Origin: Alphaproteobacteria bacterium | Lineage (GTDB): Bacteria; Pseudomonadota; Alphaproteobacteria; CAAHEQ01; UBA3637 | DNA length: 64,000 nucleotides | Assembly (NCBI GenBank): GCA_045631185.1 | Contig: JAZQUH010000039.1 | Coordinates: 75,740 to 139,739, forward strand | Direction: 5' to 3' | In this document: positions 5,799-59,249 of the stretch, piece by piece | Layout: the number at the start of each line of letters is the position of its first letter | Numbering within the stretch: the first letter of the stretch is position 1 | The notes under the pieces: generated by a model | Told to the model about the DNA's origin: nothing | The model's database searches: none | The model's input: the letters and a program-made list of their open reading frames with translations, nothing else | Made by a program: the position numbers and the translations under genes

Positions 5799-6782
5799 AT
5801 GAAACACTTATCATTATTGGCAACATTGATGTTGTCATCATCCATGGTTTATGCGGGATGGATAACCAAAGGTACAGATTATAAAGGTGATTGTTTGGAA
5901 ATGATGTGCGATTGTGTGGAAGACAGTGAAACAAGAGATGGATATTGTTGTCCGAACGGTACTACCTTTACAAATACAGGAAATTCACATCCTATTTATA
6001 CACCTTGCAAATGTCCTGAAAATTTGTCATGGGATAGTACTTTATCCCAATGTGTGGAGTGTTTGACAGATACGAATTGTGATGAAGGTGTTTCTTGTAA
6101 TATTTTAACAAAGGTATGTTGTCCGGCCGAAACACCTAAATGGGATAGCGTTCAACAAAAATGTGTGGAATGTTTGACGGATTATCAAAAAGGTGAAGGT
6201 GCTTGTCCAACTAAACAAAAACCATTATGTATAAATAACACCTGTCAGGCGTGCCCATCGGATAAAATTTATTGGCATCCGGATAAGAAAATATGTGCTT
6301 CCTGTTTGGCAAATTATGGAATTAAAACAGAAGGTGCATGCCCCAATAAAGATAAACCCTTGTGTGATTCTAATTTTGTCTGTCAACCTTGTCCAAGTAA
6401 TAAACCTTATTTTTACAATGGACAATGTTATGATTGTAAAAGCTTGCCGACAAATCAATTAAAGGTAACGCCAACCAATATTGTGGGGGCTGCAGCCTGG
6501 GGTACTTATACTGTTTTGGATTGGACAACATTTCCAGTGGATGCCACATTGAAAATCAGTTCAAAATGTATTGATGATTATTTGATGTTGTATTTAAACA
6601 ACGATGAACGCAATGCTAAAAAAATATGGTATGCATATAACGTATATTGTTCCAATGTAACACCAAGGCAGGACAGCTATAAAATTCCTGCCAATACGCC
6701 ATTTAAATTAAAAGCACATGATGCAGGTGTCGGTAACGTTGATTGGATTGGAACAATGACTATAGAACCTATTTGCGATTAG
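5799..6782 (+). CDS. Secreted cysteine-rich repeat protein, paralog 1 (CxxC/furin-EGF-like modules + beta-rich C-terminal domain)
   Basis: Sec signal MKHLSLLATLMLSSSMVYA; N-box CLEMMCDCVED..GYCC; repeated WDS..CVECLTD and EGACP.K.KPLC modules; family shared with 22177, 27380, 32608. Confidence 0.75.
   Translation: MKHLSLLATLMLSSSMVYAGWITKGTDYKGDCLEMMCDCVEDSETRDGYCCPNGTTFTNTGNSHPIYTPCKCPENLSWDSTLSQCVECLTDTNCDEGVSCNILTKVCCPAETPKWDSVQQKCVECLTDYQKGEGACPTKQKPLCINNTCQACPSDKIYWHPDKKICASCLANYGIKTEGACPNKDKPLCDSNFVCQPCPSNKPYFYNGQCYDCKSLPTNQLKVTPTNIVGAAAWGTYTVLDWTTFPVDATLKISSKCIDDYLMLYLNNDERNAKKIWYAYNVYCSNVTPRQDSYKIPANTPFKLKAHDAGVGNVDWIGTMTIEPICD
6183..6446 (+). repeat. In-frame tandem duplication, 2 x 132 nt (44 aa) Cys-rich module inside paralog 1
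   Basis: YQKGEGACPTKQKPLCINNTCQACPSDKIYWHPDKKICASCLAN vs YGIKTEGACPNKDKPLCDSNFVCQPCPSNKPYFYNGQCYDCKSL. Confidence 0.7.
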
Positions 6783-22143: not shown

Positions 22144-22176
22144 GGGGATAATTATAAATAATAAAGGGAGATAAAA

Positions 22177-23727
22177 ATGCAAAATATAAAAACAAACGAA
22201 ACAGGCCGTTCTATGGTTGAAATGCTGGGCGTTCTGGCTGTCATTGGCGTTTTAAGTGTTGCCGGTGTTGCGGGATATAAAGCCGCTGTCAGAAAGTCTT
22301 TGGCCAATAATTTATTGAATCAAGCTTCTATGCGTGCCACGGATGTCGCCACTAAAATAGGTTCAGGTAACTTGGATGCACTGGACAGTGATTCCTTTGT
22401 TGGAAATTTAGGTGGTGGTGTTACAATGTCCTCTGCTGTAAAAGGACCGGATGGATATGCGGATTATGATGAATCGGATGAACAATTTACCTTGACCATG
22501 GAAGGGGTTGATGAAGAGTTATGTCAACAAATGCAATCAATGGCCGGGGGTTCACGTTCAGTTGTGCGTGCTGTTCTTTGTGATGGTGATAAAGCCATTT
22601 TAACATTTAATAAGGATTTATCGGCAAATCCCGTTTCTTCTGATTTTGATAACAATAAAGAAGGTTGTGAATCCAGTGGTCGCAAATATTGTGCTAATGA
22701 TACCTGTATTCCTGCTACAGAAGAATGTCCAAATCCGTGTGCAGATGTGGAGCTGACAGATTGTCAACAATGTAATTCATTTACTGGTGAAATAGGATAT
22801 GCGGATAATGGTAAACGATGCAGAATAGATGATCAAAAAGGGACATGCTTTGATGGGGAGTGTCGCCCCATTTCATATTGTGAGAAAAATGGTGGTGTGT
22901 TAAAGGGTATGTCCAACCAATTTTGTCATTACACTGATCCTATGAGTTGGCTGGATGCTGCCAAAAAGTGTACGGCAAAAGAAAATCCAACGGAAGCTGA
23001 TATCAAAAAATATATGCCATCCGTTGCAGGAATGGGCTGTGGTTCTGATCAAGCATATGGTTGTGAAGATAGAAATCTTCCATATACAATCTACTGGACA
23101 TCTGATTGTTATGATTCGTTATGTGAAGAAAACTATCTTAGTAATGAGGGGGAAGCTCATAAAATTAGATATGGTTCTTGGCACGATTGGAGTTCTTCCA
23201 GAACATCACGCCTCGAGGTTGTATGTTATAATATAGATCCAGAAGGATATGAACGCGTACCAGATGATTGTCCATCGGGTACATCATCAACAGGAAAAGG
23301 GGGAGAGGTTTCATATTTATTGGATTGTTATTGTCCTGAAAATAAAATATGGGATAGTGAAACTTCCAGCTGTAAGGAAGATGATAGACCCCTTTATGTA
23401 AATGGTGAAAATAAACAGAAATTTGCATCGCTTAGATCCCTTGGGCCATACTGTCCAAAGGGATATCATTGGGCTAGTTATTCTGAATTTCAGAAAGATT
23501 TTAATTGTACCACTTGGGATGATGCATATTGGTCTTATGGCTGTTCAGAAAATGTATACCTTTCTGGAATTTTAAATTCTTGTTCTACGGATGCTTGGTC
23601 TGAGCCGATTACAGAGGTTTCTTGCGATATTTATCCATATAGTCCGGTTTATTTAGAGGCTGGGGGTAGTATCAGGCGGAAGCAGTACGGTGATAAAGGC
23701 TATGCAATTTGTAGACGTTCAGAATAG
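22177..23727 (+). CDS. Prepilin-type N-terminus fused to a large cysteine-rich, lectin-like domain (candidate pilus adhesin or minor pilin), paralog 4
   Basis: MQNIKTNETG|RSMVEMLGVLAVIGVLSVAGVAGY: Gly(-1), Glu(+5), about 20 hydrophobic residues; C-terminal 380 aa Cys-rich with CPENKIWDSETSSC module shared with 5799/32608. Confidence 0.7.
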   Translation: MQNIKTNETGRSMVEMLGVLAVIGVLSVAGVAGYKAAVRKSLANNLLNQASMRATDVATKIGSGNLDALDSDSFVGNLGGGVTMSSAVKGPDGYADYDESDEQFTLTMEGVDEELCQQMQSMAGGSRSVVRAVLCDGDKAILTFNKDLSANPVSSDFDNNKEGCESSGRKYCANDTCIPATEECPNPCADVELTDCQQCNSFTGEIGYADNGKRCRIDDQKGTCFDGECRPISYCEKNGGVLKGMSNQFCHYTDPMSWLDAAKKCTAKENPTEADIKKYMPSVAGMGCGSDQAYGCEDRNLPYTIYWTSDCYDSLCEENYLSNEGEAHKIRYGSWHDWSSSRTSRLEVVCYNIDPEGYERVPDDCPSGTSSTGKGGEVSYLLDCYCPENKIWDSETSSCKEDDRPLYVNGENKQKFASLRSLGPYCPKGYHWASYSEFQKDFNCTTWDDAYWSYGCSENVYLSGILNSCSTDAWSEPITEVSCDIYPYSPVYLEAGGSIRRKQYGDKGYAICRRSE

Positions 23728-23736
23728 TGCGTTGAA

Positions 23737-23767
23737 ATCCCCCGTCATTCGGCGGGGGATTTTTTTA
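23737..23767 (+). terminator. Intrinsic terminator after pilin-like gene
   Basis: ATCCCCCG-loop-CGGGGGAT + TTTTTT. Confidence 0.8.
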
Positions 23768-23792
23768 CATTATACTTTTATTTATCCTTTCA

Positions 23793-27379: not shown

Positions 27380-28519
27380 ATGAAACGCTTATCACTATTG
27401 ACCGTATTATTACTGACATCATCTATGGTTTGTGCGGAATGGAAGTATTATAAATTTGATTCTCAAAACAAAATATATACAACAACTCCTCAAGGTTTTT
27501 GTATGGAAGCCATTTGTGAAAATGGTTGTGTTGAAGATATTCAGACAAATAATGGAGTTTGCTGTCCCGTACCTGTTGAAGGCGAAAATTGTGTTTCCGA
27601 TACAATAGATGAAAAGGGTTGTGTTTTATCATTAAGGAAAACGTGTGCATCAAATCAATATTGTAATAAAAATACTAAAACCTGTCAGCCAATACCCGTA
27701 TGCGATACTTGTCAAAAATTCGATACCGATAACGGTCAATGCGTGGTGGATTCATCTAAGAACAATCAACAAATTCAAGATGCTTGTCATATGTGTCAAA
27801 ATGGAAAGGTTGTATTGAAAGATCTAGCAAAACAGTTTATTTCTAATAATTCTTGTGTTGAATGCTTGACCGATGCAAATTGCCCCAATGGTTATACCTG
27901 TGATGCCAATAAAAAAGAATGTCATAAACCTTGTGTAAAAAATGTTGATTGGGGTGGTTTGTGTGCACAGAGTTGTCAGTGTAAAGATGGTACGGGAAAA
28001 TATTCTGGCTGGTCTGGTGTTTGTCAAGAGGGTGTGTGCTGTTTTAGTGAATGTACTGTTTGCGGTTCAAAAGCATATTGTCCCCCAAAAGGATGTTCTT
28101 CAAAATCTGATTGTCCGTCGGGACATTATTGTTCCAATGGTGAATGTTTAGCTTGTCCGCAAAGAGTGGAAATTCCAACATATCAAGGATGTAAATCCAC
28201 CAGCGATAATCGCTTGTGTGTGATTGGGACAAGAATCGGCTCGACCAGTTATAAAAAGAATACACAATGGGTAAATCCATATCAATGCACTTATAATGTT
28301 TACTTTTCGGGAACTTTGGATACAAAAGCTAAAAGTAAAGCCCACAACAAAGTGTATATAAACGGCGGCCATGCTTTGGGTTATGATAGTCGTAAATACA
28401 CCTATTCAGATTCATATATTGGGCAATTGGCACCGGGTGGCGGTGTGGAAGTTGAAATTTATAATAACTCCGGTCGTCCGTGTTCTTCCTTATCGGCTTG
28501 GATGACATTGGCTGAATAA
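27380..28519 (+). CDS. Secreted cysteine-rich repeat protein, paralog 2
   Basis: Signal MKRLSLLTVLLLTSSMVCA (near-identical to paralog 1); N-box CMEAICENGCVED..GVCC; CVECLTDANC module. Confidence 0.75.
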   Translation: MKRLSLLTVLLLTSSMVCAEWKYYKFDSQNKIYTTTPQGFCMEAICENGCVEDIQTNNGVCCPVPVEGENCVSDTIDEKGCVLSLRKTCASNQYCNKNTKTCQPIPVCDTCQKFDTDNGQCVVDSSKNNQQIQDACHMCQNGKVVLKDLAKQFISNNSCVECLTDANCPNGYTCDANKKECHKPCVKNVDWGGLCAQSCQCKDGTGKYSGWSGVCQEGVCCFSECTVCGSKAYCPPKGCSSKSDCPSGHYCSNGECLACPQRVEIPTYQGCKSTSDNRLCVIGTRIGSTSYKKNTQWVNPYQCTYNVYFSGTLDTKAKSKAHNKVYINGGHALGYDSRKYTYSDSYIGQLAPGGGVEVEIYNNSGRPCSSLSAWMTLAE

Positions 28520-32607: not shown

Positions 32608-33678
32608 ATGTATAAATTACTTTTATCATTAAGCACAATAGGGCTAATGAGTTATTCGTTTGGGGCTTTAGCGCAGGTTAAGTATTCTGGAGCTTGTATG
32701 GAAGCAATTTGTGATTATGGTTGTCATGAAAATGCAGATGGTACAGGTCAATGCTGTGAACGGCCGACAAAAACAAATTGTTTAAAAAATGTTTATGGAT
32801 CTGATGGTTGTATGATTGCAATAAAGGCAGATTGTGCCTTAACTGAATTTTGTGCATCGGATGGAACCTGTAAACCATGCTCTACGGCGGATGCAACACC
32901 ACGTCGCCGTAATCAAGAATCAAATTATTGCGAATGTCCAACAGGATATAATAAACGCTGTGGTTCAACCAGAACAACTAAGACATGTTTGGATGGTGGT
33001 GATTATGTATGCGCAAATGGTTGTTTCGATCATACAGATTGTCCCGCTGACCAACAATGTTCTTGTGTGGGCCGTTCTTGTCCAAGGACAGGAGGTACTT
33101 GTCAGTCTTGTCCAGAAGGGACACATCGTTCTGATGCTTCTGCGACGGTTTGTTTGCCTTGTACAGGATGTCAGACTTGGGATCCGGAAACTCAGGTTTG
33201 TTTAAATCAGTGTCCAGAAGGTCAATTTTGTGGTCAGTTACCTGGGGGAAAAGCCCCCAATTGTGGTGGTGATGCGTGTATGCCTATTTTGCCCAAAGAT
33301 AAATTGGTGAAAAAATTGGGTAGTATAAATAACCGTAGTTATTATATACCGCCGCCAGACAAACAATGGAAAATGACCCATACCAGTGCTTCTCGTTTTT
33401 GTGAATATTATGGTATGCATTTGGCGACAATCAATGAAGCCTGTATGAAAGACTTTGCTTATGATAGTGGTCACGATTGTCCTAATTTTGTCAGTGTGAA
33501 AAAATTCCAATGGGGTGATAATTGGTTTGATTTGACTCACTATAATACAAACTCCAGTGGTGATTTTTGGCTGGCGAATTTAGATGGTAATAACGCAATG
33601 CGTGTAACACATTCTTGTGGTAATAACCATCAAACAAATATTTGTAATACAGTTTATCCGTTATGTACGGAAAATTAA
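32608..33678 (+). CDS. Secreted cysteine-rich protein, paralog 3, with C-type-lectin-like C-terminus
   Basis: Signal peptide; N-box CMEAICDYGCHEN..GQCC; CQTWDPETQVC module; C-terminal W..A..FC..YGMHLATI..FWLANL pattern. Confidence 0.7.
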   Translation: MYKLLLSLSTIGLMSYSFGALAQVKYSGACMEAICDYGCHENADGTGQCCERPTKTNCLKNVYGSDGCMIAIKADCALTEFCASDGTCKPCSTADATPRRRNQESNYCECPTGYNKRCGSTRTTKTCLDGGDYVCANGCFDHTDCPADQQCSCVGRSCPRTGGTCQSCPEGTHRSDASATVCLPCTGCQTWDPETQVCLNQCPEGQFCGQLPGGKAPNCGGDACMPILPKDKLVKKLGSINNRSYYIPPPDKQWKMTHTSASRFCEYYGMHLATINEACMKDFAYDSGHDCPNFVSVKKFQWGDNWFDLTHYNTNSSGDFWLANLDGNNAMRVTHSCGNNHQTNICNTVYPLCTEN

Positions 33679-42982: not shown

Positions 42983-43321
42983 TTAATAACCACCATAATC
43001 ATTACCTTCGCCTTGAACTCCTGAACCAGTATCAGCAGCGTATTTGACGATATAGTCAGCACAGGCAACAACGGCCACACCAAAGACCAATGCCCACAAC
43101 CATTTCCATTGGATTTTACCCAACAAGGCAGCAGCGGCCATACCAATCAAACCAAAAGCAGCCAAAACATAAAATACCTTTCTGACGTCATCAAAAACGG
43201 ATTGTAAATTATTCACAATCGAACCTAATCCTCCAGCGTCATCTTCAGCCCATGCAGAGCCAACGTAGGTAATTAAGGCAAAAATGGCAACAAAGGCCAT
43301 GACTTTTAATAATTTTTTCAT
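42983..43321 (-). CDS. Small secreted two-TM protein with VirB2/TrbC-pilin-like topology
   Basis: Signal MKKLLKVMAFVAIFALITYVGSAWA|ED; about 25 aa; TM1; KIQWKW; TM2; short Gly/acidic tail; AAAGGAA RBS. Confidence 0.5.
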   Translation of the reverse strand: MKKLLKVMAFVAIFALITYVGSAWAEDDAGGLGSIVNNLQSVFDDVRKVFYVLAAFGLIGMAAAALLGKIQWKWLWALVFGVAVVACADYIVKYAADTGSGVQGEGNDYGGY

Positions 43322-43608: not shown

Positions 43609-44373
43609 ATGAAAAAGTTGTTTGTCGGTTGTATCGCATTTTTTTGGATGTCTTGTGCCGTGGCACAAGATTCGGGAGTGATTGCGGTTGCAGAAGCTGA
43701 TGAATTTTTGGGCCCAACATATGCGATTCCTGATGCTCCTGTTTTTGTAGATTTGCCGTCAGGGGGAGCTTCTAACCGCAATGTCCTGACTGAAATTTTT
43801 GGTTCTGATGCGGTAACCTTAAACGCTAATGATCCAATTGAAACGGTTTCTGGTCAAAATTTTGAACCAACCCCCGGTTTATATCGTCCCAAAAAAAATG
43901 TTTTAACAAAGTTACCGGATTTGCCGGCACCTCAATTGATGTATGAATCTGTTTTGGATACAACAATTACGCCGGTGATTCGAAAATCAGATTATGCGGA
44001 TCGTTTTTTGGAAAGTCTTCAAAATGGAAAGAGGGTCACTTTTTCTGTTCCTCGTGAAATACGTATTTCTTTTTATCCCGGGCAATCTTCTTTGTCGGCT
44101 CAAGCATTAAAGTGGATAAAGGCCTTTGCTTTAAAGGTTCGTAATGATCCACGGTTGGTAATTGAAATTCGTGTTTCAGAAAAAGATTGGTCGTTGCAAA
44201 GCAAACGTGTGGCGTTGATGCTTCAGTCGGTAATGGAACAAGGTGTTTCTCGGCATCAAATTTTTATCTATAAAACAAATCGTTCTTCTGATTCTGTTTT
44301 GTTAGGATATGGTTATAGTGTGGATAAAGAATTGGAAAAAGGTAAAAAAAAGCAAAAAACAATCACTTGGTAA
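43609..44373 (+). CDS. Secreted pilus-operon protein with OmpA/MotB-like C-terminal region (PilL position)
   Basis: Signal peptide ..SCAVA|QD; C-terminus FYPGQSSLSAQALKWIKAFALKV..LVIEIRV..LQSKRVALMLQSVMEQGV resembles OmpA-C pattern. Confidence 0.4.
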   Translation: MKKLFVGCIAFFWMSCAVAQDSGVIAVAEADEFLGPTYAIPDAPVFVDLPSGGASNRNVLTEIFGSDAVTLNANDPIETVSGQNFEPTPGLYRPKKNVLTKLPDLPAPQLMYESVLDTTITPVIRKSDYADRFLESLQNGKRVTFSVPREIRISFYPGQSSLSAQALKWIKAFALKVRNDPRLVIEIRVSEKDWSLQSKRVALMLQSVMEQGVSRHQIFIYKTNRSSDSVLLGYGYSVDKELEKGKKKQKTITW

Positions 44374-44433
44374 AAAAAATACTTGTAATATAAAAAAAAA
44401 GAGTGTATGTTTTTCTAAAACAGGGAGTACAAT

Positions 44434-45129
44434 ATGATTTATAAAAAAGATTTCTTTAAGTTTTTTGTAGTTTCAGGCGTGTTATTGTCTGTGATTTCTG
44501 CTCAGGCTCAGAGTGGTCAGTTTGTTGATTGTTCTCAAGGAGGGGCAAATTGTGATGTGCTTTATGCGACTGATGATGTATTTATAATGCCTGATTGTGT
44601 GGATTGTGTATCAGGTGAAATTCAGGTGGAACCGGCGGTTACAAAGACTTCTTATCAGCCTTTGGCATATTCTATGCCTATAGATAATCAGATGGAAGTT
44701 TTGCCTAATGGTGCTGTGCGTATGACGACAACTCAGGTTTCTGGTGTGCGTTCAGGAGCTAGCGATATTCAAACGACACGTAAGGTAGAAAGAGTTGAAG
44801 AGCGTCGTTTAGGTGGTAAATGGGTAACGCATGATACAAATGAAAAGGTTGCTTTCGGTGATTCTGTTCATGATTGGGATGCTGCCCGTGGAGAAACGTT
44901 GAAATCTTTGTTGACTCAATGGGCTGAAGTATCGGGTTGGACTTTGGTTTGGAAATTGGATCGTGATTATAATTTGGAAGCCGGTGTGGTTTTCCGTGGT
45001 ACATTTACCGAAGTGGCTGGTGCGATTATTCGTACTTTTGCTCGTGCAAAACCAGCCCCTATCGGGACTTTTTATCGTGGTAATCGTGTTTTGGTTGTCA
45101 GCATACAGGAGGACGAGAATGCTCATTAA
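44434..45129 (+). CDS. TcpQ-domain pilus biogenesis protein (R64 PilM/TcpQ-like)
   Basis: Signal peptide; C-terminus ETLKSLLTQWAEVSGWTLVWKLDRDYNLEAGVVFRGTFTEVAGAII typical of TcpQ/PilM family. Confidence 0.6.
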   Translation: MIYKKDFFKFFVVSGVLLSVISAQAQSGQFVDCSQGGANCDVLYATDDVFIMPDCVDCVSGEIQVEPAVTKTSYQPLAYSMPIDNQMEVLPNGAVRMTTTQVSGVRSGASDIQTTRKVERVEERRLGGKWVTHDTNEKVAFGDSVHDWDAARGETLKSLLTQWAEVSGWTLVWKLDRDYNLEAGVVFRGTFTEVAGAIIRTFARAKPAPIGTFYRGNRVLVVSIQEDENAH

Positions 45130-46738
45130 AAAATTATCCATTGCTTTGTTTGCGGGGTGTTTTGCTTTGGCTGGATGTAATCAATATGTAGTTGAAGGAA
45201 ATAAACGCATAGAAGAAACTCTATCCCGTGTGGAAGAGTATAAAGAAATTTCTCAGATTCCGGATTTGCCTGAACCCACTGATACAGTGCGTATGCAAAA
45301 TGATATTTATTTGGGTAATCAAAGTATCAAGATTATGGAAGGGGATTCATTGCCCGCGTGGTTGGAAAAAGAAGATGGTATTACAATGGCAGTGGCAGAA
45401 GATGCTAAGTTGGCGGATATCTTGCAAGAAATTTCTGACATTACAGGGATGGATATTCGTTTGGATGATTTGCGTATGGAAAATGCAATACCAGAAGACG
45501 CAGTTCCTTTGAAATATTCGGGATCTTTAAGCGGTCTTTTGAATTATTTATCTAATCGATACAGTGTGTATTGGCGTTATAAAGATGGTGTAATTTCTTT
45601 CTTTACTAAGGAAACTCGTATTTTTACAATTTATGCTTTGCCGACCACTTCTACTATGCAGGCCAGTTTGAGTGGTGCCACAATGGGCGAAGGTGGTGGT
45701 GGCACTTCGTCTTCAAACTTGAGTGTTAATGCTGAATTGGATGTTTGGAGCAGCATTGAAGAAGGAGTTAAACAGGTTGTCGGTGAAAATGGTCAGTTGT
45801 CTTTTTCAAAGACTGCTGGTACGATTTCTGTAACAGCTTCGCCTTATATTGTGCGTAAGGTTGCTGCTTATGTGGCCAATTGGAATGAAAAATTATCACG
45901 TCAGGTGGCAATTACAGTACGTATTTTACAGGTGACCATTTCCGATGATAATAATTATGGTTTGAATTTGAATGCTATTTTTGATAACGGAAATATTTCA
46001 GCCACTTTTTCAACAGCTGCAACGTTGGGGACAAGTGGTCTTTTGTCGATGGCTTTGATAAAACCTGATAGCAAATTTAAACCAGAGGCTATTATTCAGG
46101 CCTTTTCAACCCAAGGAAAAACTCGGTTAGTGACCAGTTCAACCGTGACAACGCTGAATAATAAACTAGCACCGATTCAAATTTCAACATCTCAAGGGTA
46201 TGTGAAAGAAATTACGGTTACTACAACGGGTAGTGGTGAGGATAAAAGTTCCGAAGTTCAAATGGATACAGATGATTTGAGCTATGGTTTTACAATGGAA
46301 GTTTTACCGCGTATCTTGGATCATGGTCGTTTGATTTTGTTGTTTAACTTGTCTATTACAGATTTGTTGGAATTGAAGAATTTTACGGCTGGTTCAAACG
46401 ATAAAGGTTCGAATGATTCTTCTTCCGAAACAGAGGGTGATTCTTCTGAAGGTGAAGACGATGATAATGAGTCTGAAATGAAAACAGTTCAGTTGCCGAC
46501 AATGAGAAATCGTGGTTTTGTTCAGGAAATTGCAATGCGCTCAGGACAAACACTGGTCTTAACAGGTTTTGAAGATATCAATGAATCAACAAAATCTGCC
46601 GGTGTGGGTAAGGCTAAAATGGGTATTTTGGGTGGTCAGGCGGTAACTGCAATGGTACGGAACGTTTTGGTTATCTTAGTTACACCAGAAGTGTTACAAT
46701 CGCCTTTGTCTCAAGAAGCCTTAATGCGCGATTATTAA
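45119..46738 (+). CDS. Lipoprotein secretin (PilN-family type IVb pilus outer-membrane channel)
   Basis: Start MLIKKLSIALFAGCFALAGC (lipobox) with AGGAGGA RBS, overlapping upstream stop; secretin C-domain (TTLNNKLAPIQIS.., SYGFTMEVLPRIL.., VLVILVTPEVL). Confidence 0.8.
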   Translation: MLIKKLSIALFAGCFALAGCNQYVVEGNKRIEETLSRVEEYKEISQIPDLPEPTDTVRMQNDIYLGNQSIKIMEGDSLPAWLEKEDGITMAVAEDAKLADILQEISDITGMDIRLDDLRMENAIPEDAVPLKYSGSLSGLLNYLSNRYSVYWRYKDGVISFFTKETRIFTIYALPTTSTMQASLSGATMGEGGGGTSSSNLSVNAELDVWSSIEEGVKQVVGENGQLSFSKTAGTISVTASPYIVRKVAAYVANWNEKLSRQVAITVRILQVTISDDNNYGLNLNAIFDNGNISATFSTAATLGTSGLLSMALIKPDSKFKPEAIIQAFSTQGKTRLVTSSTVTTLNNKLAPIQISTSQGYVKEITVTTTGSGEDKSSEVQMDTDDLSYGFTMEVLPRILDHGRLILLFNLSITDLLELKNFTAGSNDKGSNDSSSETEGDSSEGEDDDNESEMKTVQLPTMRNRGFVQEIAMRSGQTLVLTGFEDINESTKSAGVGKAKMGILGGQAVTAMVRNVLVILVTPEVLQSPLSQEALMRDY

Positions 46739-46748
46739 AGGAGTCCGT

Positions 46749-48107
46749 ATGGAAAAAGAACAAACCAATCTGATTGATCAGCTGGAAACAACGAAACAAG
46801 AAGTTGTTAAGCGTTCTTCAACGGGTATTGTGACGGTTGATGGTCAAAAATATGCCGTTGGTTTGGTTTGGCAGCCGGTTCAAAATTTGGACGATCCGAT
46901 TGTTGAAATTCGGGAATCTGCAGAAAGTGAAGCAGGGGCTGACTTATACTGTTTAAGACCGGCTGCAACACCTCAATATGGTATAGGTTATAGTGAATTG
47001 GGACATCGTGACGGTATCCCTTCCTTGGCCGCATCTGTTGCGACTGCATTGACTGATCGTACTTCTGTTTGTGCTGTTTTCCGTGTTGATGAAGGATGGT
47101 GGTTGGTGGCCATCCGTAATGATTTGATTTTAGCGGAAGAAGATATTGTTTTTGACAACGAAGTAGAAGCTCAGCGTGCCTATGCTGCCATGATGGCTGT
47201 GCCTGATTGGGACTTGCGTATTGTTCCGCCAGAATGGAATATCGAAGGTGTAGAACGCCAAGATTTGGCAAAACTTGTTGCAGGAACAAGAAAGGTACGT
47301 CTGCAGCAAATTAATGCTCAAGTTCGGACAAAGTTTTTGTTATTTTTTGCGATTGCAATTGTTTTAGGTGTTGCTTATTTAATTTGGTTTTTAATCAAGA
47401 CATTAACTGGGATAATAGGGGAACCGACTCCACTTCCGGGAGACGGCGATAGCGGCGGGATAATTACTACTCCTGTTGTTCCTACTCCAAGAGGACCTGA
47501 ACCATGGGATGTTGTTCCTGATATGAATGCCTTTTTTCAACAATGTTGGACATCTGTGTATCAGGTTCAAAGCATTACTATTCCTGGTTGGACTATGGGA
47601 ACAATACAGTGTACTCCAAAACAGTTGACAACTTCTTGGCGAATGACTGATCCAAAACTTGGGCCTTTGTCTTTGGCTCGTTTTGGTATTGATTCTTATA
47701 ATTTTGATAAAGATAATTTTGAAATGACTATAAAAAGTGATGGGACTTCTGCAGATGGTCTGATGAAGTTTGATGAACCTCATATTCCGACGGTTTCTTC
47801 TGTCCCCAGAATGACAGCAAAAGAGTTAGAAGAAGATGTACGTGAAATTCAATTGGCAACAGGGCTTACTTTCCAATTCAATAGACAAACTTTATTGTCG
47901 CCCCCTAATCGGGCTGATGGTACACGTCCACCTGGTCAAAAATCATATGTATACTATTCTTTTACGGTTTTATCGCCATATCCACCTATGGAATGGAAAC
48001 CGTTTTTTGAAAAATTTTCTGGTTTAGAACTAATTAAACTAGAATATACACCAGCTGGTGGTGCAACTAACAAATGGAAATATGAGGGAAGAATCTATGC
48101 AAAATAA
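46749..48107 (+). CDS. PilO (R64/PilO2-type pilin accessory protein)-like
   Basis: N-terminus TVDGQKYAVGLVWQPVQ..., central TM, size about 450 aa, position after the secretin. Confidence 0.6.
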   Translation: MEKEQTNLIDQLETTKQEVVKRSSTGIVTVDGQKYAVGLVWQPVQNLDDPIVEIRESAESEAGADLYCLRPAATPQYGIGYSELGHRDGIPSLAASVATALTDRTSVCAVFRVDEGWWLVAIRNDLILAEEDIVFDNEVEAQRAYAAMMAVPDWDLRIVPPEWNIEGVERQDLAKLVAGTRKVRLQQINAQVRTKFLLFFAIAIVLGVAYLIWFLIKTLTGIIGEPTPLPGDGDSGGIITTPVVPTPRGPEPWDVVPDMNAFFQQCWTSVYQVQSITIPGWTMGTIQCTPKQLTTSWRMTDPKLGPLSLARFGIDSYNFDKDNFEMTIKSDGTSADGLMKFDEPHIPTVSSVPRMTAKELEEDVREIQLATGLTFQFNRQTLLSPPNRADGTRPPGQKSYVYYSFTVLSPYPPMEWKPFFEKFSGLELIKLEYTPAGGATNKWKYEGRIYAK

Positions 48108-48987
48108 AACTTTTTTAAAAACCTTTTTTGTCTTTTCTTTTTTGGCCTTACCTGCGTTTGCTCAAGTGGATGAGTTGCCTGAAGAATATAAAACGCCAAC
48201 AATAGATTTGTCGGACAAGAAAACATTGGATTTTTCTGACCGTACTTCTATGGATACCTTGGAGTTAACGCCGTTGCCGGGGAATAATGAAACTGATATT
48301 ACAGGACCTCAAGAATATACGGAATCTGTTTCTTCTAATGATTATCCAAGTGAACAGTTGCGAGGTCGTTTAAATTTGGATGTTTTTGAAGAAATGGCTC
48401 AAATAGAAAGGGATACAGCCTTTTTAAAATTACATATTGAAAAAGCGAAAGTAAAAAATGAATTAGAAAATTTGCGTGCAACATACCGTCAAAATCGATT
48501 GGATGAAATTGCCAAAAGAGAGGATGTTGTTCGTACGCGTATTCAATGGTGGCAAGAACAGGAAAAATTGCGTTTAGAGGCTGAAAAACAACGGCAAGAA
48601 GCTGAGGAGTTGAAAACTCAAAGAGCTGAAGCAGAGGCTTTGAAGCAGCAGTTGGCTGAAGCGCAAAAAGCTGTAGAGGAAGCTCAAGCTCAGGCTCAGG
48701 CGGAAGCTTTGAAGGTGCAAGAACAACTTCAAAATCAGAAACAAGAACCTGTATTTGAACAGGGAAATGATGCTGAATTAGAACCTGTAATTTCTCATCC
48801 GACATATGTTTTGGTTGGTGTAAAGGGGACACGAGGAAATTTAGAAGCAAAAGTGAAAAATATAACTTCTGAACAGATCACTACCGTTCGTTCTGGTGAT
48901 GATTTATTTGGTGAAACTGTTGTTTCTGTTACGCCGGATAGTGTTATTTTGCTTCGTGAAGGCAGCGAATATGAAATTAAATTTTAA
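48097..48987 (+). CDS. PilP-like pilot/periplasmic protein with long coiled coil
   Basis: Start MQNKTFLKTFFVFSFLALPAFA overlapping pilO stop; E/A/Q coiled coil; C-terminal beta domain YVLVGVKG..VILLREGSEYEIKF. Confidence 0.55.
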   Translation: MQNKTFLKTFFVFSFLALPAFAQVDELPEEYKTPTIDLSDKKTLDFSDRTSMDTLELTPLPGNNETDITGPQEYTESVSSNDYPSEQLRGRLNLDVFEEMAQIERDTAFLKLHIEKAKVKNELENLRATYRQNRLDEIAKREDVVRTRIQWWQEQEKLRLEAEKQRQEAEELKTQRAEAEALKQQLAEAQKAVEEAQAQAQAEALKVQEQLQNQKQEPVFEQGNDAELEPVISHPTYVLVGVKGTRGNLEAKVKNITSEQITTVRSGDDLFGETVVSVTPDSVILLREGSEYEIKF

Positions 48988-49002
48988 AAATTTGGTGCTG
49001 AG

Positions 49003-50952
49003 ATGGACGAAAATAAATTAGCTGATTCGAATAATTTTCAAGCTCAACAGATTTCATCTGGTGATATTCTTTCACCACCAATAATTCCTGGGCAGATGTC
49101 ATCTGAATTGAATACTGATGAATCTCAGATAGAAGGATCTGTTGCTGGAACGGATTTTTCTGCAGCTGATATTTTGGCTCCTCGTCAGAATTTATCAGAG
49201 TCTTTAAATACATTGAAAGAATTTTCACAAACGGACCAAACTCAACCAGTTCAAGAAGTTAAGCCAGAAGAAGTTACCGCTCAAACAAAATTGACTGTAG
49301 AGGAAAATCCACAAGCAGAACAACAATCTGCCCCATCAGAATTGTATTCTTATGAAGATCCAAATGATCATAGTTCTGTTAGATTTTTAAAAGATTTGTA
49401 TGATAATTCAAATGAATGTATGACTTCAGCAGCTGGTTCTTTTCCTGTCAATGAAGAAACTCGTAAATTATTGGCTTTATTCTCCAATGGTCGTTTTTTT
49501 GTGGTGGAGGATAAAAAGTATGATGGTCGAGTTTTGGGTTTTGAATACTTGGCCAAAAAAAGGCGTTTGCAGATTTCTGATCCAGAGTATGTAACAGCTG
49601 CCGAACTGTTGGCTATTTATGGTTATGCAGATCAAATTCATACGGCGACAGATTCAATCAGTACGGAAGAGGCTCAACGTCAAACTCGTATGCAACGAGA
49701 TTTTGTGACGGTTATTTCGCGTGCGGCTATTAACCATGTTTCTGATATTCATATTGTTGTGGCAGATCATACAACAGTTATGTTCCGTGTGAATGGTTTG
49801 ATGCAGACGGAAATGGAATATAATAAAGAATGGGGTGAAAGTTTTGTGCGTGCAGCCTTTGCATCAGCAGACGTTTCGGATTCCAACTATGCTCAAAATG
49901 AATATCAGGCGGCCCAAAAATTGGGACGTACGCCATTGCGTGGTTCGGGTGGGCGCTTGGTATTGCCCAAATCCGTTTTGGGTTTGCGTTTACAATTTAA
50001 CCCGATTGCTTTTGGTACGCGTTATGTGATTATCCGTTTGTTATATGCAGATGAAAATGCATCTACGGGCGATCAGGCGCTTGAAAGTTTGGGTTTTTCT
50101 GATTACGATATTGAAAAATTCAGATATTTGCGCTCATTACCAACGGGAATTGTGGTTGTCTCGGGTCCAACAGGTTCAGGAAAATCTACAACCTTACAGC
50201 GTAACATGATTTCCATGTTAAAGGAACGTAACTTTGAAACCAACCTGATTACCGTGGAAGATCCGCCTGAATATCCGATTCCTGGAGCTCGACAGATGCC
50301 GGTGACCAATGCGGGGGTTGAAGAAGCTAAAGATCGTGAATTCACCAAAGCATTATCGGCAGCATTGCGTTCTGACCCTGACTCTTTAATGATCGGTGAA
50401 ATTCGTACCTTATCAGCGGCTGATTTGGCTTTTCGTGGTGCTTTATCCGGTCATAATGTGTGGACCACCTTGCATGCCAATACGGCGTCGGCGGTATTAT
50501 TGCGTTTAAAGGATATAGGCGTAGAAGATTTTAAATTACAAGATCCTTCTATTATGCGTGGTATGTTAGCTCAGCGCCTATTCAGAAAAGTTTGTCCACA
50601 TTGTCGAGTTTCGACGAAAAACCAATTACAACATCCTGCGGTTCAAAGATTACGTGAAGCCTATGGGGATATAGGATTAGAAAATACTTATTTGCGTGGA
50701 GCAGGTTGTGAGGAATGTGATTTTCGTGGTGTCAGCGGTCGTTCGGCCGTTGCTGAATTTATTTTGCCAGATACAACCTTTTTGGATTTAATGCTAAAGG
50801 GTGAAACACAAAAAGCGATGAATTATTGGGTAACAGATTTACATGGTCGTACCTTGAAAGAGGGAGCTATGGAGCACATGTTTAAAGGTGAATTTGATAT
50901 TGAAGAAGTAGAGCGATGGTGTGGTCATCTTAATCAACCGAATTTGATTTAA
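49003..50952 (+). CDS. GspE/PilB-family assembly ATPase (R64 PilQ-like) with about 230-aa N-terminal extension
   Basis: SDIHIV, Walker A SGPTGSGKSTT, SDPDSLMIGEIR, GHNVWTTLHAN, CPHC...CEEC tetracysteine. Confidence 0.9.
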   Translation: MDENKLADSNNFQAQQISSGDILSPPIIPGQMSSELNTDESQIEGSVAGTDFSAADILAPRQNLSESLNTLKEFSQTDQTQPVQEVKPEEVTAQTKLTVEENPQAEQQSAPSELYSYEDPNDHSSVRFLKDLYDNSNECMTSAAGSFPVNEETRKLLALFSNGRFFVVEDKKYDGRVLGFEYLAKKRRLQISDPEYVTAAELLAIYGYADQIHTATDSISTEEAQRQTRMQRDFVTVISRAAINHVSDIHIVVADHTTVMFRVNGLMQTEMEYNKEWGESFVRAAFASADVSDSNYAQNEYQAAQKLGRTPLRGSGGRLVLPKSVLGLRLQFNPIAFGTRYVIIRLLYADENASTGDQALESLGFSDYDIEKFRYLRSLPTGIVVVSGPTGSGKSTTLQRNMISMLKERNFETNLITVEDPPEYPIPGARQMPVTNAGVEEAKDREFTKALSAALRSDPDSLMIGEIRTLSAADLAFRGALSGHNVWTTLHANTASAVLLRLKDIGVEDFKLQDPSIMRGMLAQRLFRKVCPHCRVSTKNQLQHPAVQRLREAYGDIGLENTYLRGAGCEECDFRGVSGRSAVAEFILPDTTFLDLMLKGETQKAMNYWVTDLHGRTLKEGAMEHMFKGEFDIEEVERWCGHLNQPNLI

Positions 50953-50964
50953 GGAAGGTGTAAT

Positions 50965-52086
50965 ATGGCACAAGGAAAAAATGAGGTAAAATTAAAAGGC
51001 GGTGCGTTGGAATCAATTAATATGGCTTATGCCCAATTAATGGTTCGTTTGCATGCAACAGATCGATTAGAGATGTATCGTAAATTGGCGGCCCTTTTGA
51101 AAAACAGATTTTCTTTGATGGATGCTTTGGAACGTTTATATCAAATTGCTTCAAAAGACGGAAAAAGTCCTTCAGATACGATGGCCATGGCAGTAGCCAA
51201 TTGGATGTTAAAAATTCGAAATGGTCAGACTTTTTCGGAAGCATTACATGGTTGGGCTCCTTCTACCGAATTGTTATTGTTATCAGTGGGTGATGTTGCT
51301 AATTTGGAATTAGCCTTGGAACATACTGTACGCGTCGTTGAAGGCATGAACAAAATGCGCTCTTTGGTTTGGGGTGCTGTGGCTTATCCTTTGTTTTTGT
51401 TGTGTATGGTGGCTTTATTGATTTGGGGTGTGGCCAAGTTCATGGTGCCACCGATGAAGGAAGCCGTGCCGAATTTGGAATGGCAAGGGGTTGCAGGCTC
51501 ATTAATTGATTTGTCTAATTTTGTTGACCAGCACCCGATATTATTATTTTCTATTGTACCTGTAATTACTATCTGTATAATGATTACATTTCCATATTGG
51601 AAGGGTGCTGGTCGGGCAGCATTTGATAAATTTCCGCCATGGTCCATTTATCGTGGTTTTGTGGGGGTCAGCTGGTTGTTGGCTTTATCGGCTTTGGTGC
51701 GTGCTGGTATGCCTGTTTCCAAGGCTGTTCGTTCGCTACTGGGTGATGATTCAACTCCTTATTTAAAGTTTCGTTTAAATCGCACATTATTATTTATTAG
51801 TAATGGTGATAACTTAGGCGAAGCCTTATATCATACCCGCTTGGGATTTCCAGATGAAGAAGTAATAGGCGATTTACGGATTTATTCTGAGTTGGATACA
51901 TTTCCTGAAGCTTTGGAAAACTTGGCAACAGGTTGGTTGGAATCATCGGTTCGCACTATCGGGAAACAGGCGGAAATTTTAAACTCGATTGCCATTTTGG
52001 CCATTGCCGCTGTCATCGGTTGGGTGGTTTGGGGAACCTTTGCCATGCAGGATCAAATGGTCAGCGGTATGGGCTTGGGCGGTTAG
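50965..52086 (+). CDS. GspF/PilC-family inner-membrane platform protein (R64 PilR-like)
   Basis: 373 aa, duplicated cytoplasmic domain + 3 TM layout; AAGGAAGG RBS. Confidence 0.8.
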   Translation: MAQGKNEVKLKGGALESINMAYAQLMVRLHATDRLEMYRKLAALLKNRFSLMDALERLYQIASKDGKSPSDTMAMAVANWMLKIRNGQTFSEALHGWAPSTELLLLSVGDVANLELALEHTVRVVEGMNKMRSLVWGAVAYPLFLLCMVALLIWGVAKFMVPPMKEAVPNLEWQGVAGSLIDLSNFVDQHPILLFSIVPVITICIMITFPYWKGAGRAAFDKFPPWSIYRGFVGVSWLLALSALVRAGMPVSKAVRSLLGDDSTPYLKFRLNRTLLFISNGDNLGEALYHTRLGFPDEEVIGDLRIYSELDTFPEALENLATGWLESSVRTIGKQAEILNSIAILAIAAVIGWVVWGTFAMQDQMVSGMGLGG

Positions 52087-52262
52087 ACCGGTTTGGCGTT
52101 GCCGATATTTAAGGCACAAACATCCAAAACGTTTTTGATTTTTGAAACAACTTTATCGTCTTTGACATTGGGGGTAATGGCGGTTAAAACGCTGGCCCCC
52201 GTCACAATAGATGTTAAAGCGGTGATAAAGTCATAAAAATGATTGATGATAAAGTTTAACAT
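52083..52262 (-). CDS. Small membrane protein (holin-like), 59 aa
   Basis: Hand translation MLNFIINHFYDFITALTSIVTGASVLTAITPNVKDDKVVSKIKNVLDVCALNIGNAKPV; below ORF-track cutoff; last gene of lysis cassette. Confidence 0.4.
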   Translation of the reverse strand: MLNFIINHFYDFITALTSIVTGASVLTAITPNVKDDKVVSKIKNVLDVCALNIGNAKPV

Positions 52263-52271
52263 TTTATTCTC

Positions 52272-52520
52272 CTATTTTAAAATAAGGTTTAACAAAGCCA
52301 TAATCAGGGCAGTGCCTGTTGTGGCCACGATAATGGTAATTAAATTTTTAATCGGTGTAATTTCATTTTTTAAAACAAACTCTTGTTTTAAATTGGCATA
52401 TAGTGTGTCAACCTGTTGTTTGATTTCACCAAGTTGTTGTTGCAATAATGAAACGGACGCCATCAATTTGCCGATTTCTATGGATAGACTGGGGGCAGGC
52501 ATATCAGACTCCTTAAACAT
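52272..52520 (-). CDS. Tail-anchored coiled-coil protein (holin/spanin-like)
   Basis: 82 aa; coiled coil then C-terminal TM ITIIVATTGTALIMALLNLIL; 8-nt overlap with hydrolase gene. Confidence 0.45.
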   Translation of the reverse strand: MFKESDMPAPSLSIEIGKLMASVSLLQQQLGEIKQQVDTLYANLKQEFVLKNEITPIKNLITIIVATTGTALIMALLNLILK

Positions 52521-52917: not shown

Positions 52918-52929
52918 TTATTATTCTCC

Positions 52930-55048: not shown

Positions 55049-55049
55049 A

Positions 55050-57541: not shown

Positions 57542-57558
57542 ATTGTTCCTTTTGTATG

Positions 57559-57592: not shown

Positions 57593-57611
57593 CAAATGGT
57601 AAAGATTTTTT

Positions 57612-59233: not shown

Positions 59234-59249
59234 AAATAATTCCTTTTGT

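What the first reader, a model, noticed from the sequence alone, without database searches (positions are those of the whole stretch)
22177..23727. Prepilin-type N-terminus fused to a 380-aa cysteine-rich lectin-like region: candidate tip adhesin for the remote pilus machine
The N-terminus is MQNIKTNETG|RSMVEMLGVLAVIGVLSVAGVAGY. It has the class III signal layout: a short basic/polar leader, Gly at -1, Glu at +5 and about 20 hydrophobic residues. Arg at +1 is atypical. The rest of the protein is not pilin-like. It is Cys-rich and shares modules with three Sec-secreted paralogs, for example CPENKIWDSETSSC here against CPENLSWDSTLSQC at 5799. It also contains two stretches with a C-type-lectin-like pattern (MSWLDAAKKC...YWTSDC...VVCYN and YHWASYSEFQKDFNC...AICR). 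The gene lies 20 kb from the pilus operon, directly after lolCD, with its own promoter and terminator. It is the only pilin-like gene in the window. It would make sense as a PilV-like adhesin displayed by the 43.6-52 kb machinery.
Basis: partly seen in the sequence, partly recalled or inferred. Interest (0 to 1): 0.7.

Follow-up and report, generated by a model that had tools for sequence, protein, structure and literature searches.

The report
Modular type IVb pilin with lectin-fold module
This gene encodes a pilus-subunit "handle" fused to a string of disulfide-rich binding modules, one with a C-type-lectin fold; it belongs to a large, unnamed family in uncultured gut Alphaproteobacteria that probably gives one pilus many alternative sticky ends.

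Summary
The ORF (22177-23727, 516 aa) is real, and its N-terminus is a genuine type IV prepilin signal. The string G|RSMVEMLGVLA(V/I)IGVLS is invariant in more than 100 relatives. In three related genomes it also heads short PilS/Bundlin-type major pilins lying directly downstream of a type IVb pilus operon orthologous to the window's 43.6-52 kb operon. Residues 11-150 form a pilin module (AlphaFold pLDDT above 90; profile-profile homology to those pilins). Residues 247-350 are a compact C-type-lectin-like domain: the module profile hits langerin at E=1e-5, and all top-50 Foldseek hits are CTLDs. No calcium/sugar-binding motif is present. The protein is not unique. It is one member of a large family (more than 579 genomic hits; at least 14 genes in one genome) with a constant pilin module and variable Cys-rich C-termini (CTLD, EGF, discoidin, mucin-WxxW), scattered among housekeeping genes. 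The best reading is a modular T4b pilin displayed by the pilus as an adhesin, one of many exchangeable ones. Tip position, ligand and processing are inferred. No prepilin peptidase or major pilin gene lies in the window. It is a new variant of a known kind.

The parts
22164..22170 (+). Shine-Dalgarno sequence AAGGGAG, 6 nt before the ATG
   Evidence: read directly from the sequence
22177..22206 (+). Leader peptide MQNIKTNETG (residues 1-10) ending in Gly-1; predicted prepilin-peptidase cleavage after G10
   Evidence: G10 is invariant in 72 aligned relatives; leaders vary in length but all end (E/Q/K)(S/T/N/K)G
22207..22626 (+). Pilin module (residues 11-150): alpha1 helix (14-63), 4-stranded sheet, invariant Cys116/Cys135 pair
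   Evidence: AF2 pLDDT 86-96 over residues 31-170; hhalign against machine-adjacent short pilins gives probability 100%, and 97% (E 7.6e-11) without the first 32 residues; invariant columns
22663..22872 (+). Cys-rich spacer (residues 163-232, 14 Cys), EGF-like by composition only
   Evidence: nearly invariant Cys columns C177, C184, C215, C224, C229; a relative's equivalent region hits EGF_Teneurin; no significant hit for the window protein itself
22915..23226 (+). Compact C-type-lectin-like domain (residues 247-350)
   Evidence: hhalign to the family-wide C-terminal module gives probability 97%, E 7e-11; module profile against PDB gives langerin 1.1e-5 and nearly all other hits CTLDs; AF2 of 228-356 has pLDDT 77.8, pTM 0.74; all Foldseek top-50 hits are CTLDs, probability 0.9-0.98, best E 3.7e-3, TM 0.36-0.45
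23269..23379 (+). 37-aa Cys module (residues 365-401, CPSGTSS...CPENKIWDSETSSCKE) shared with Sec-secreted ORF 5799-6782
   Evidence: tblastn E 1.7e-4, 46% identity
23380..23727 (+). Near-orphan C-terminal region (residues 402-516) and stop codon; fold unknown
   Evidence: querying residues 357-516 finds only 4 relatives among 1.84 billion representatives; AF2 pLDDT below 50; hhalign to the CTLD module gives probability 3%
23734..23770 (+). Intrinsic terminator: 13-bp stem (7 GC pairs), 4-nt loop, T-run
   Evidence: sequence
43609..52086 (+). Type IVb pilus machine operon (254-aa protein, TcpQ-like, secretin, PilO, 309-aa protein, T2SSE ATPase, T2SSF platform): the presumed assembly machine. 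It has no pilin, PilT or peptidase gene attached
   Evidence: Pfam; same gene order as an annotated E. coli T4b operon; orthologous to L056/L057/L068 operons that are followed by pilins with the same N-terminus

Best explanation
The gene encodes a modular type IVb pilin. Shown: the protein has a class III (prepilin) signal, and its mature N-terminus is identical to that of short PilS/Bundlin-type major pilins encoded next to orthologous T4b machines in related genomes. It has a confidently modelled pilin module (residues 11-150), followed by disulfide-rich modules that include a compact C-type-lectin-fold domain (247-350). It belongs to a large family with a constant pilin module and variable C-termini. 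Inferred: after Sec insertion, a prepilin peptidase cuts after Gly10. The invariant alpha1 helix lets the subunit enter the filament built by the 43.6-52 kb machine (ATPase, platform, PilO, secretin/TcpQ). Because the 366-residue extension is bulky, the subunit most likely sits at the pilus tip, where its narrow beads-on-a-string modules can pass through the secretin and act as the ligand-binding end. Different paralogs would give the same pilus different binding specificities. The ligand is unknown. The CTLD lacks the Ca2+/sugar motifs, so it may bind protein or glycan.
For: Invariant G|RSMVEMLGVLA..G..S..G in 72 aligned relatives. Short proteins with this N-terminus score above Pfam thresholds for PilS (4.9e-18) and Bundlin (4.9e-14), and lie right after T2SSF in operons orthologous to the window's (ATPase 56-62% identical). 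hhalign of the large-family N-domain against the short pilins gives probability 100%, and 97% without alpha1-N. AF2 gives a 50-residue alpha1 plus sheet at pLDDT above 90. CTLD assignment. Relatives carry discoidin, Mucin2_WxxW and teneurin-EGF modules, which are typical binding domains. Within one genome the paralogs share only leader, alpha1 and pilin head at the DNA level. Precedents: modular pilins (PMC8179133); the CofB tip trimer with a lectin-fold domain on a T4b pilus (PMC6048534); PilV adhesin variants (PMC9045228).
Against: No A24 prepilin peptidase was found in the window or in 80 related loci, including three complete operons. No major pilin or PilT gene lies in the window; a T7-like phage block sits where related operons have them, so the window's machine could be crippled or served from elsewhere. 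TIGR02532 is below cutoff and Pfam is silent. PDB sequence and fold searches give only non-significant pilin hits. Foldseek support for the CTLD is uniform but modest (best E 3.7e-3, TM about 0.4). Dozens of large paralogs per genome is more than a one-tip-per-pilus model obviously needs. Nothing here shows expression, cleavage, assembly or binding.
Confidence: 0.6

Rival explanations
1. It is a pilin-like protein that is processed but not displayed on a long pilus. It either stays in the inner membrane or a short pseudopilus with its Cys-rich domain in the periplasm (T2SS-like role, for example a piston cap or substrate adaptor), or it is released as a soluble exoprotein by the T4b machine.
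For: One database calls a relative 'pseudopilin PulG'. T4b pili are known to double as secretion devices (TcpF/CofJ). The window's operon lacks a major pilin and a retraction ATPase. The same Cys-rich modules also occur on ordinary Sec-secreted proteins in the window.
Against: The machine is T4b-type (TcpQ, PilO, the gene order of T4b operons), not T2SS. The N-terminus is identical to PilS/Bundlin-type major pilins rather than to pseudopilins. Adhesion-type modules (CTLD, discoidin, mucin WxxW) make little sense in the periplasm.
Confidence: 0.15
2. It is incorporated along the filament body (or forms filaments itself) rather than at the tip, decorating the pilus shaft with many copies of the Cys-rich arm.
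For: It retains Glu5 and an alpha1 identical to the major pilin, so nothing in the sequence restricts it to the tip. The modular-pilin literature does not exclude a body location if the linker is flexible (PMC8179133). The many paralogs could co-polymerise.
Against: A 366-residue extension on every subunit, or on many, would clash with helical packing and with the secretin channel (inference). Known large T4b minor pilins (CofB, TcpB) are tip-located initiators.
Confidence: 0.12
3. It is an ordinary signal-anchored (type II) membrane protein, or a Sec-cleaved protein, whose resemblance to a prepilin is coincidental and which has no link to any type IV filament.
For: TIGR02532/N_methyl models do not reach threshold. 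Arg at +1 is not seen in known pilin classes (own knowledge). No peptidase gene was found.
Against: The string is invariant across hundreds of proteins and is identical to that of Pfam-positive T4b pilins adjacent to T4b machines. Homology extends beyond the helix into the pilin head. AF2 gives the lollipop architecture.
Confidence: 0.05

Closest known systems
Modular type IV pilins (Streptococcus sanguinis PilB with a vWA module, PilC with a lectin module; Raynaud et al. 2021, PMC8179133)
   Same: A small N-terminal pilin module with a class III signal is fused to a functional binding module that is not specific to pilus biology, and the protein is proposed to be tip-exposed. The concept is described as widespread (more than 1,200 proteins, 264 architectures).
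   Different: Those were catalogued through IPR012902, which this family fails. They are T4a/monoderm examples with one or two per genome. Here the pilin is T4b-type, the modules are Cys-rich CTLD/EGF-like, and the family is expanded to many dispersed paralogs per genome.
Type IVb minor pilins CofB (ETEC CFA/III) and TcpB (V. cholerae TCP)
   Same: Large T4b pilin-like proteins of about 400-520 aa, with an N-terminal pilin domain plus C-terminal beta-rich domains. CofB ends in a lectin-fold (H-type) domain, sits at the tip as a trimer and initiates assembly (PMC6048534; PMC5207764).
   Different: They are encoded inside the pilus operon as a single copy. No sequence or fold similarity was detected here (TcpB Foldseek E 3.5). 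The lectin fold is H-type rather than C-type. CofB's lectin site binds a secreted protein, not a sugar.
PilV adhesins of IncI plasmid (R64, TP114) thin pili with the shufflon
   Same: A T4b pilus of the PilN/PilO/PilQ/PilR type (the window's machine has the TcpQ-secretin-PilO-ATPase-T2SSF order). The minor pilin has a constant N-terminal part and alternative C-termini that set binding specificity (PMC9045228, PMC5430464).
   Different: There the diversity comes from site-specific DNA inversion in one gene. Here there are no inverted repeats or recombinase, and the diversity is spread over separate genes with their own upstream regions. No homology to PilV was shown.
PilS/Bundlin-type T4b major pilins (Pfam PF08805, PF05307)
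   Same: The short family members with the identical N-terminus are members. The window protein's pilin module is homologous to them by profile-profile comparison.
   Different: The window protein itself does not reach either Pfam model. Its pilin head is smaller (about 90 residues after alpha1) and carries a 366-residue extension.
C-type lectin-like domains (langerin/CD207, NK-receptor CTLDs, snake-venom snaclecs)
   Same: The W..A...C...G..L.S...WxxxD...C pattern, profile similarity (E 1.1e-5) and predicted fold.
   Different: The domain is shorter (about 100 against 120-130 residues), has extra disulfides and has no EPN/QPD...WND Ca2+/carbohydrate site. The Pfam Lectin_C model is not reached. 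Most similar structures are protein-binding CTLDs.

Membership tests
Type IV pilin (class III signal peptide, as defined in PMC10191384) | Hydrophilic leader peptide ending in Gly or Ala | tested here: met
   MQNIKTNETG; Gly10 is invariant in 72 relatives (definition)
Type IV pilin (class III signal peptide, as defined in PMC10191384) | 20-25 mainly hydrophobic residues after the cleavage site, often with Glu at +5 | tested here: met
   RSMVEMLGVLAVIGVLSVAGVAGY; Glu15 (= +5) is invariant
Type IV pilin (class III signal peptide, as defined in PMC10191384) | Match to the IPR012902 / TIGR02532 / Pfam N_methyl signature | tested here: not met
   TIGR02532 scores 7.7 bits against a cutoff of 16.3; no Pfam hit. 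The Pfam-positive PilS-type pilin L068:10001-10570, with the same N-terminus, also shows no N_methyl hit at E<=0.01, so the model is blind to this clade
Type IV pilin (class III signal peptide, as defined in PMC10191384) | Lollipop fold: long alpha1 helix packed on a beta-sheet head | tested here: met
   AF2 gives helix 14-63 and strands 83-89, 103-109, 132-136, 139-145, with pLDDT 86-96. Foldseek and PDB-sequence hits to pilins are not significant
Type IV pilin (class III signal peptide, as defined in PMC10191384) | Cleavage (and N-methylation) by an A24 prepilin peptidase | not testable with these tools
   No A24-like ORF in the window or the 80 loci; the whole genome is not available
Type IV pilin (class III signal peptide, as defined in PMC10191384) | Polymerised into a filament by a T4F machine | not testable with these tools
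   Only association: an orthologous T4b operon is followed by pilins with the identical N-terminus in L056/L057/L068
T4b pilins (Pfam PilS PF08805 / Bundlin PF05307) | Score above the Pfam gathering threshold | tested here: not met
   No hit for the window protein; short relatives do score
T4b pilins (Pfam PilS PF08805 / Bundlin PF05307) | Homology of the globular head to bona fide T4b pilins | tested here: met
   hhalign probability 97%, E 7.6e-11 after removing the first 32 mature residues; the alignment reaches the conserved FTLT..GV...VC.QM segment
T4b operon-encoded minor pilin (CofB/TcpB/PilV type) | Encoded within the pilus operon | tested here: not met
   The gene is 19.9 kb from the operon, between lolCD-like genes and PPDK; relative P0040 likewise sits between UDG and gyrB
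T4b operon-encoded minor pilin (CofB/TcpB/PilV type) | Sequence or fold similarity to CofB, TcpB or PilV | tested here: not met
   TcpB 7w63 Foldseek E 3.5; no others listed. PilV was not compared directly
Shufflon-diversified adhesin | Inverted sfx repeats and alternative 3' segments next to the gene | tested here: not met
   Only short chance-level repeats in 21.5-25.5 kb; no second copy of any gene segment in the window
C-type lectin-like domain (fold) | Profile/sequence similarity to CTLDs | tested here: met
   Module profile A2 against PDB: langerin 1.1e-5 and 29 of 33 listed sequences are CTLDs. The window's own module joins that profile through hhalign (probability 97%), but a plain HMM without its close relatives gives only 4.6 bits
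C-type lectin-like domain (fold) | Predicted 3-D fold superposes on CTLDs | tested here: inconclusive
   All top-50 Foldseek hits are CTLDs at probability 0.63-0.98, but the best E is 3.7e-3, TM is 0.33-0.45 and rmsd is 5-10 A
C-type lectin-like domain (fold) | Pfam Lectin_C threshold | tested here: not met
   0 hits for the window module; 2 of 31 family modules reach 0.0099 at best; scattered weak hits to Xlink, FGE-sulfatase and Lcl_C
Ca2+-dependent carbohydrate-binding C-type lectin (function) | EPN or QPD motif plus WND motif in the long loop region | tested here: not met
   Residues 247-350 read directly: no EPN, QPD or WND. The domain is about 100 aa, so the long loop is largely missing
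C-type lectin-like domain, second copy (residues about 402-516) | Relationship to the CTLD module | tested here: not met
   hhalign probability 3.4% against the family module and 0.4% against the window-type module; HMM -1.4 bits; AF2 pLDDT below 50

The most novel reading that the evidence does not exclude
Uncultured gut Alphaproteobacteria keep a genome-wide library of dozens of stand-alone modular pilin genes. All share one invariant alpha1 'plug' (RSMVEMLGVLA..., with an unprecedented Arg at +1) so that any of them can cap the same type IVb pilus. This would be a paralog-based, transcription-controlled counterpart of the plasmid shufflon, arming one filament with interchangeable eukaryote-like adhesion heads (CTLD, EGF, discoidin, mucin-WxxW) aimed at host mucus, host cells or other microbes.
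Probability: 0.35. Interest if true: 0.75.

Novelty: new variant of a known kind. Interest (0 to 1): 0.55.

Why it matters
Type IV pili are simple filaments with many functions, and grafting binding modules onto pilins is one recognised route to that versatility. This family would extend the idea in three ways. First, it is a T4b-type modular pilin family invisible to the signature (IPR012902) used to catalogue modular pilins, so current censuses undercount them. Second, it is expanded to many dispersed genes per genome with a frozen N-terminal plug and freely varying heads, which suggests a repertoire strategy for adhesion specificity. Third, it occurs in a poorly known, uncultured group of gut Alphaproteobacteria found in humans, ruminants and rabbits, and it carries eukaryote-like extracellular modules, pointing to how these organisms hold on in the gut. 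It also supplies a simple sequence tag (GRSMVEMLGVLA) for finding all such proteins. The finding is comparative and predictive only; no function has been shown.

Tried and rejected
(1) A homologue search with the lectin-like module alone (residues 228-356) returned nothing because the word-index prefilter failed. I mined the module locally instead. (2) A first HMM match of the window module to the family module (iE 3e-9) was circular, because the window protein was among the seeds. Without it and its close relatives the HMM gives only 4.6 bits. Only profile-profile comparison supports the link. (3) Foldseek on the full-length model gave no hit at E<=1e-3. (4) A PDB sequence profile of the whole family gave only sub-threshold pilin hits. 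(5) The prepilin peptidase search (phmmer with an E. coli A24 seed, plus a screen for polytopic ORFs with GxGDxK) found nothing in the window or the 80 loci. (6) Shufflon and DGR ideas for C-terminal diversity were rejected: no inverted repeats, no template copy, no YxDD ORF. (7) The second CTLD (402-516) was rejected. (8) Exact-sequence context look-ups for the window protein and P0010 had no record. (9) No paper was found that links RF32 gut Alphaproteobacteria with pili. (10) Recent gene conversion among paralogs was rejected: identity is at most 79% and is confined to the leader plus alpha1.
Full report
OBSERVATION. The ORF is present exactly as described: 22177..23727 on the + strand, ATG start, 516 codons, with in-frame stops immediately upstream. 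An AAGGGAG Shine-Dalgarno sequence lies 6 nt before the ATG. A 13-bp GC-rich hairpin with a T-run begins 7 nt after the stop codon. The gene follows a MacB_PCD/FtsX permease and an ABC ATPase (lolCD-like) and precedes, after a convergent 178-aa ORF, pyruvate phosphate dikinase. The 77-nt gap after the ABC ATPase has no terminator and only 9/12 promoter matches, no more than in shuffled sequence, so an independent promoter is not established. The protein has 30 Cys: two in the first 150 residues and 28 after residue 160.

THE N-TERMINUS IS A REAL PREPILIN SIGNAL. Curated models do not see it. Pfam gives nothing at E<=10. NCBIfam gives only a PpdD N-terminal match (E 0.021) and TIGR02532 at 7.7 bits against a cutoff of 16.3. 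A homologue search returned 408 relatives. In the 120 listed, the string G|RSMVEMLGVLA(V/I)(I/V/M)GVLS is essentially invariant behind leaders of variable length. In a 72-sequence alignment, G10, R11, S12, M13, V14, E15, M16, L17, G18, V19, L20, G24, G30, A43, A54, C116 and C135 are invariant, although overall identity is often only 30-40%. This fits the published definition of the class III signal: a hydrophilic leader ending in Gly/Ala, then 20-25 hydrophobic residues, often with Glu5 (PMC10191384).

LINK TO THE MACHINE. The decisive evidence is comparative. A scan of species-representative genomes found more than 579 coding stretches with this tag, almost all in uncultured Alphaproteobacteria MAGs from human, ruminant and rabbit guts. 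In the 80 loci retrieved, tag-bearing ORFs range from 113 to more than 1,600 mature residues. In three loci (L056, L057, L068), short members (168-178 mature residues, 2-4 Cys) lie directly after the T2SSF gene of an operon ordered TcpQ, secretin, PilO, ATPase, T2SSF, and are followed by a PilT-like ATPase. One of them (L068:10001-10570) has the N-terminus ...NEQSG|RSMVEMLGVLAIIGVLSVGGIAGY and scores above threshold for Pfam PilS (4.9e-18) and Bundlin (4.9e-14). These short pilins also match an annotated E. coli 'type 4 pilus major pilin' at E down to 4.7e-17. The window's 43.6-52 kb operon has the same Pfam content and order, the same order as an annotated E. coli T4b operon, and is orthologous to those three operons: ATPase 56-62% identical, T2SSF 50-53%, TcpQ 58-65%, secretin 36-38%, PilO 33-34%. 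The tag is therefore the N-terminus of the pilins served by this kind of machine.

THE PILIN MODULE. All 120 listed relatives share residues about 5-150; beyond about 190 the coverage collapses. AlphaFold2 with the family alignment models a 50-residue helix (14-63) followed by strands 83-89, 103-109, 132-136 and 139-145 and a helix at 113-122, with pLDDT 86-96 over residues 31-170. A profile of the large members' first 150 mature residues aligns to a profile of the short pilins with probability 100%. With the first 32 residues removed from both, the probability is still 97% (E 7.6e-11), and the alignment reaches the conserved 'FTLT..GV...VC.QM' strand and Cys. Direct PDB searches do not add support. 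Foldseek on the full model has no hit at E<=1e-3 (S. Typhi PilS E 2.6, TcpB E 3.5), and the family profile hits 'fimbrial protein' alpha1 only at E 0.1-0.5.

THE C-TERMINAL EXTENSION. Residues 163-232 are a Cys-rich spacer with nearly invariant Cys columns. It has no significant match of its own, although a relative's equivalent region hits teneurin-type EGF. A closely similar module is the sole appendage on small pilins in another MAG (L011, L019). A more common variant, '...M(T/S)WWSA.NWC.AHGK.LVSLSDL.C...YYWT.D...(A/V)LC(R/E)', ends most family members (62 C-terminal and 14 internal module hits among the listed proteins).

My first HMM link between the two variants was circular. Profile-profile comparison without the window's close relatives on the target side gives probability 97%, E 7e-11 over 84 columns. 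A profile of 31 modules searched against all PDB sequences finds langerin at 1.1e-5, and 29 of the 33 listed sequences are C-type-lectin-like domains (PLA2R, mosGCTL-1, CLEC2D, CD69, botrocetin, mannose receptor). AlphaFold2 of window residues 228-356 gives pLDDT 77.8 and pTM 0.74. All 50 top Foldseek hits to it are CTLDs (CD72, convulxin, NKR-P1, CLEC9A, mincle, langerin, LOX-1) at probability 0.63-0.98, but the best E is 3.7e-3 and TM is 0.33-0.45. Member-by-member Pfam hits are weak but all point to C-lectin-fold families (Lectin_C, Xlink, FGE-sulfatase, Lcl_C).

I conclude that this is a compact CTLD fold. It has no EPN/QPD or WND motif (sequence), so Ca2+-dependent sugar binding is not indicated.

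Residues 365-401 share a 37-aa Cys module with the Sec-secreted ORF 5799-6782 (E 1.7e-4). A search with residues 357-516 found only four relatives among 1.84 billion representative proteins. This region is not related to the CTLD module (hhalign probability 3%).

THE FAMILY. Other members carry discoidin/F5-8C, Mucin2_WxxW and teneurin-EGF modules. One MAG (SIG60) has at least 14 tag-bearing ORFs in nine of my loci. Among eight of them, DNA identity is 74-79% from -30 to +115 nt around the cleavage codon (61% in the preceding -62 window), mostly 50-60% through the pilin head, and at background (35-43%) upstream of -100 and beyond +440. They are thus independent genes sharing a constrained module, not recent conversions. 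Copies sit alone among housekeeping genes: the window copy lies between lolCD and PPDK, and P0040 lies between UDG and gyrB. No shufflon-type repeats, template repeat or reverse-transcriptase-like ORF accompany the window gene. Public sources give these proteins no name, apart from one 'pseudopilin PulG' call.

WHAT IS MISSING. The window's operon ends at T2SSF (52086). Where related operons have pilins and a PilT-like ATPase, the window has a T7-like phage block on the other strand: cell-wall hydrolase, terminase, capsid and head-tail connector. No other class III motif occurs in the window. No A24 peptidase candidate was found in the window or in any of the 80 loci, whereas the E. coli T4b operon has one in-operon. 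Processing and assembly are therefore inferred, and this strain's machine could even be incomplete.

INTERPRETATION. The best-supported reading (0.6) is a modular type IVb pilin: a pilin 'handle' that enters the T4b filament, carrying small disulfide-stabilised modules, one with a CTLD fold, as a binding head. It most likely sits at the tip and is one of many interchangeable heads. This matches the published concept of modular pilins (PMC8179133) and the precedent of CofB, a T4b tip minor pilin with a lectin-fold domain (PMC6048534). Functionally it echoes the PilV variants of IncI plasmids (PMC9045228). Rivals are a non-displayed pseudopilin-like or secretion role (0.15), incorporation along the shaft (0.12), and a coincidental signal anchor (0.05).

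NOVELTY. Modular pilins, T4b minor pilins with lectin-fold heads, and constant-N/variable-C pilus adhesins are all known. What is new is the combination: a T4b-type family invisible to IPR012902, an invariant Arg+1 alpha1 tag, a CTLD/EGF/discoidin/mucin-type module set, and expansion into many dispersed genes per genome in an uncultured gut lineage. I rate it a new variant of a known kind, with interest 0.55.

Noticed in passing
window 42983-43321 (-): A 112-aa ORF just upstream of, and divergent from, the T4b operon is a TrbC/VirB2-type (type IV secretion) pilin (Pfam E 2.3e-8, above threshold). No other T4SS genes were noted nearby in the window.
   Followed up: partly
window 52100-61000 (-): A T7-like phage block (cell-wall hydrolase 52513-52917, terminase 52930-54321, capsid 57612-58469, head-tail connector 59444-60988) sits exactly where related T4b operons carry their pilin genes and a PilT-like ATPase. 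It may have displaced or separated them.
   Followed up: partly
window 5799-6782, 27380-28519, 32608-33678 (+): Three Sec-signal proteins have 30, 40 and 37 Cys and no Pfam hits. ORF 5799 shares a 37-aa module with the pilin. ORF 32608 ends in a motif that looks CTLD-like by eye (…SASRFCEYYGMHLATINEAC…FWLANLD…YPLCTEN); an HMM seeded partly on the window protein matched it at iE 8e-5, but the match was lost once those seeds were removed. The same module set may therefore be used on both pilin-anchored and freely secreted proteins.
   Followed up: partly
relatives P0089, P0094, P0091, P0086: Family members with the same pilin module carry F5/8-type-C discoidin, Mucin-2 WxxW and teneurin-type EGF modules. 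These are eukaryote-like extracellular adhesion domains.
   Followed up: partly
L068 9266-9934 (+): Between the T2SSF gene and the tagged pilins lies a 222-aa Bundlin-like protein (Pfam 2.6e-7) that lacks the G|RSMVEM tag. It may be a pilin-like accessory or minor subunit of the machine.
   Followed up: no
N-terminal extensions of relatives, e.g. P0048, P0058, P0063, P0103: Many database models start far upstream and include recurring peptides such as CHCEEHSATRQSNEIASHSFAMTE. This looks like translation of a repeated upstream DNA element or miscalled starts, rather than real long leaders.
   Followed up: no
window 22207-22209 (Arg11, position +1): Arg at +1 of the mature pilin is invariant across the whole family, including the Pfam-positive major pilins. 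To my knowledge no described pilin class uses Arg at this position, and its role is unexplained.
   Followed up: no
window 43609-44373 and 48058-48987 (+): Two operon genes have no Pfam hit: a 254-aa signal-peptide protein and a 309-aa coiled-coil, Glu/Gln/Ala-rich protein. Both have weak counterparts at the same positions in L056/L057/L068, so they are probably clade-specific machine parts (PilL/PilP positions).
   Followed up: partly
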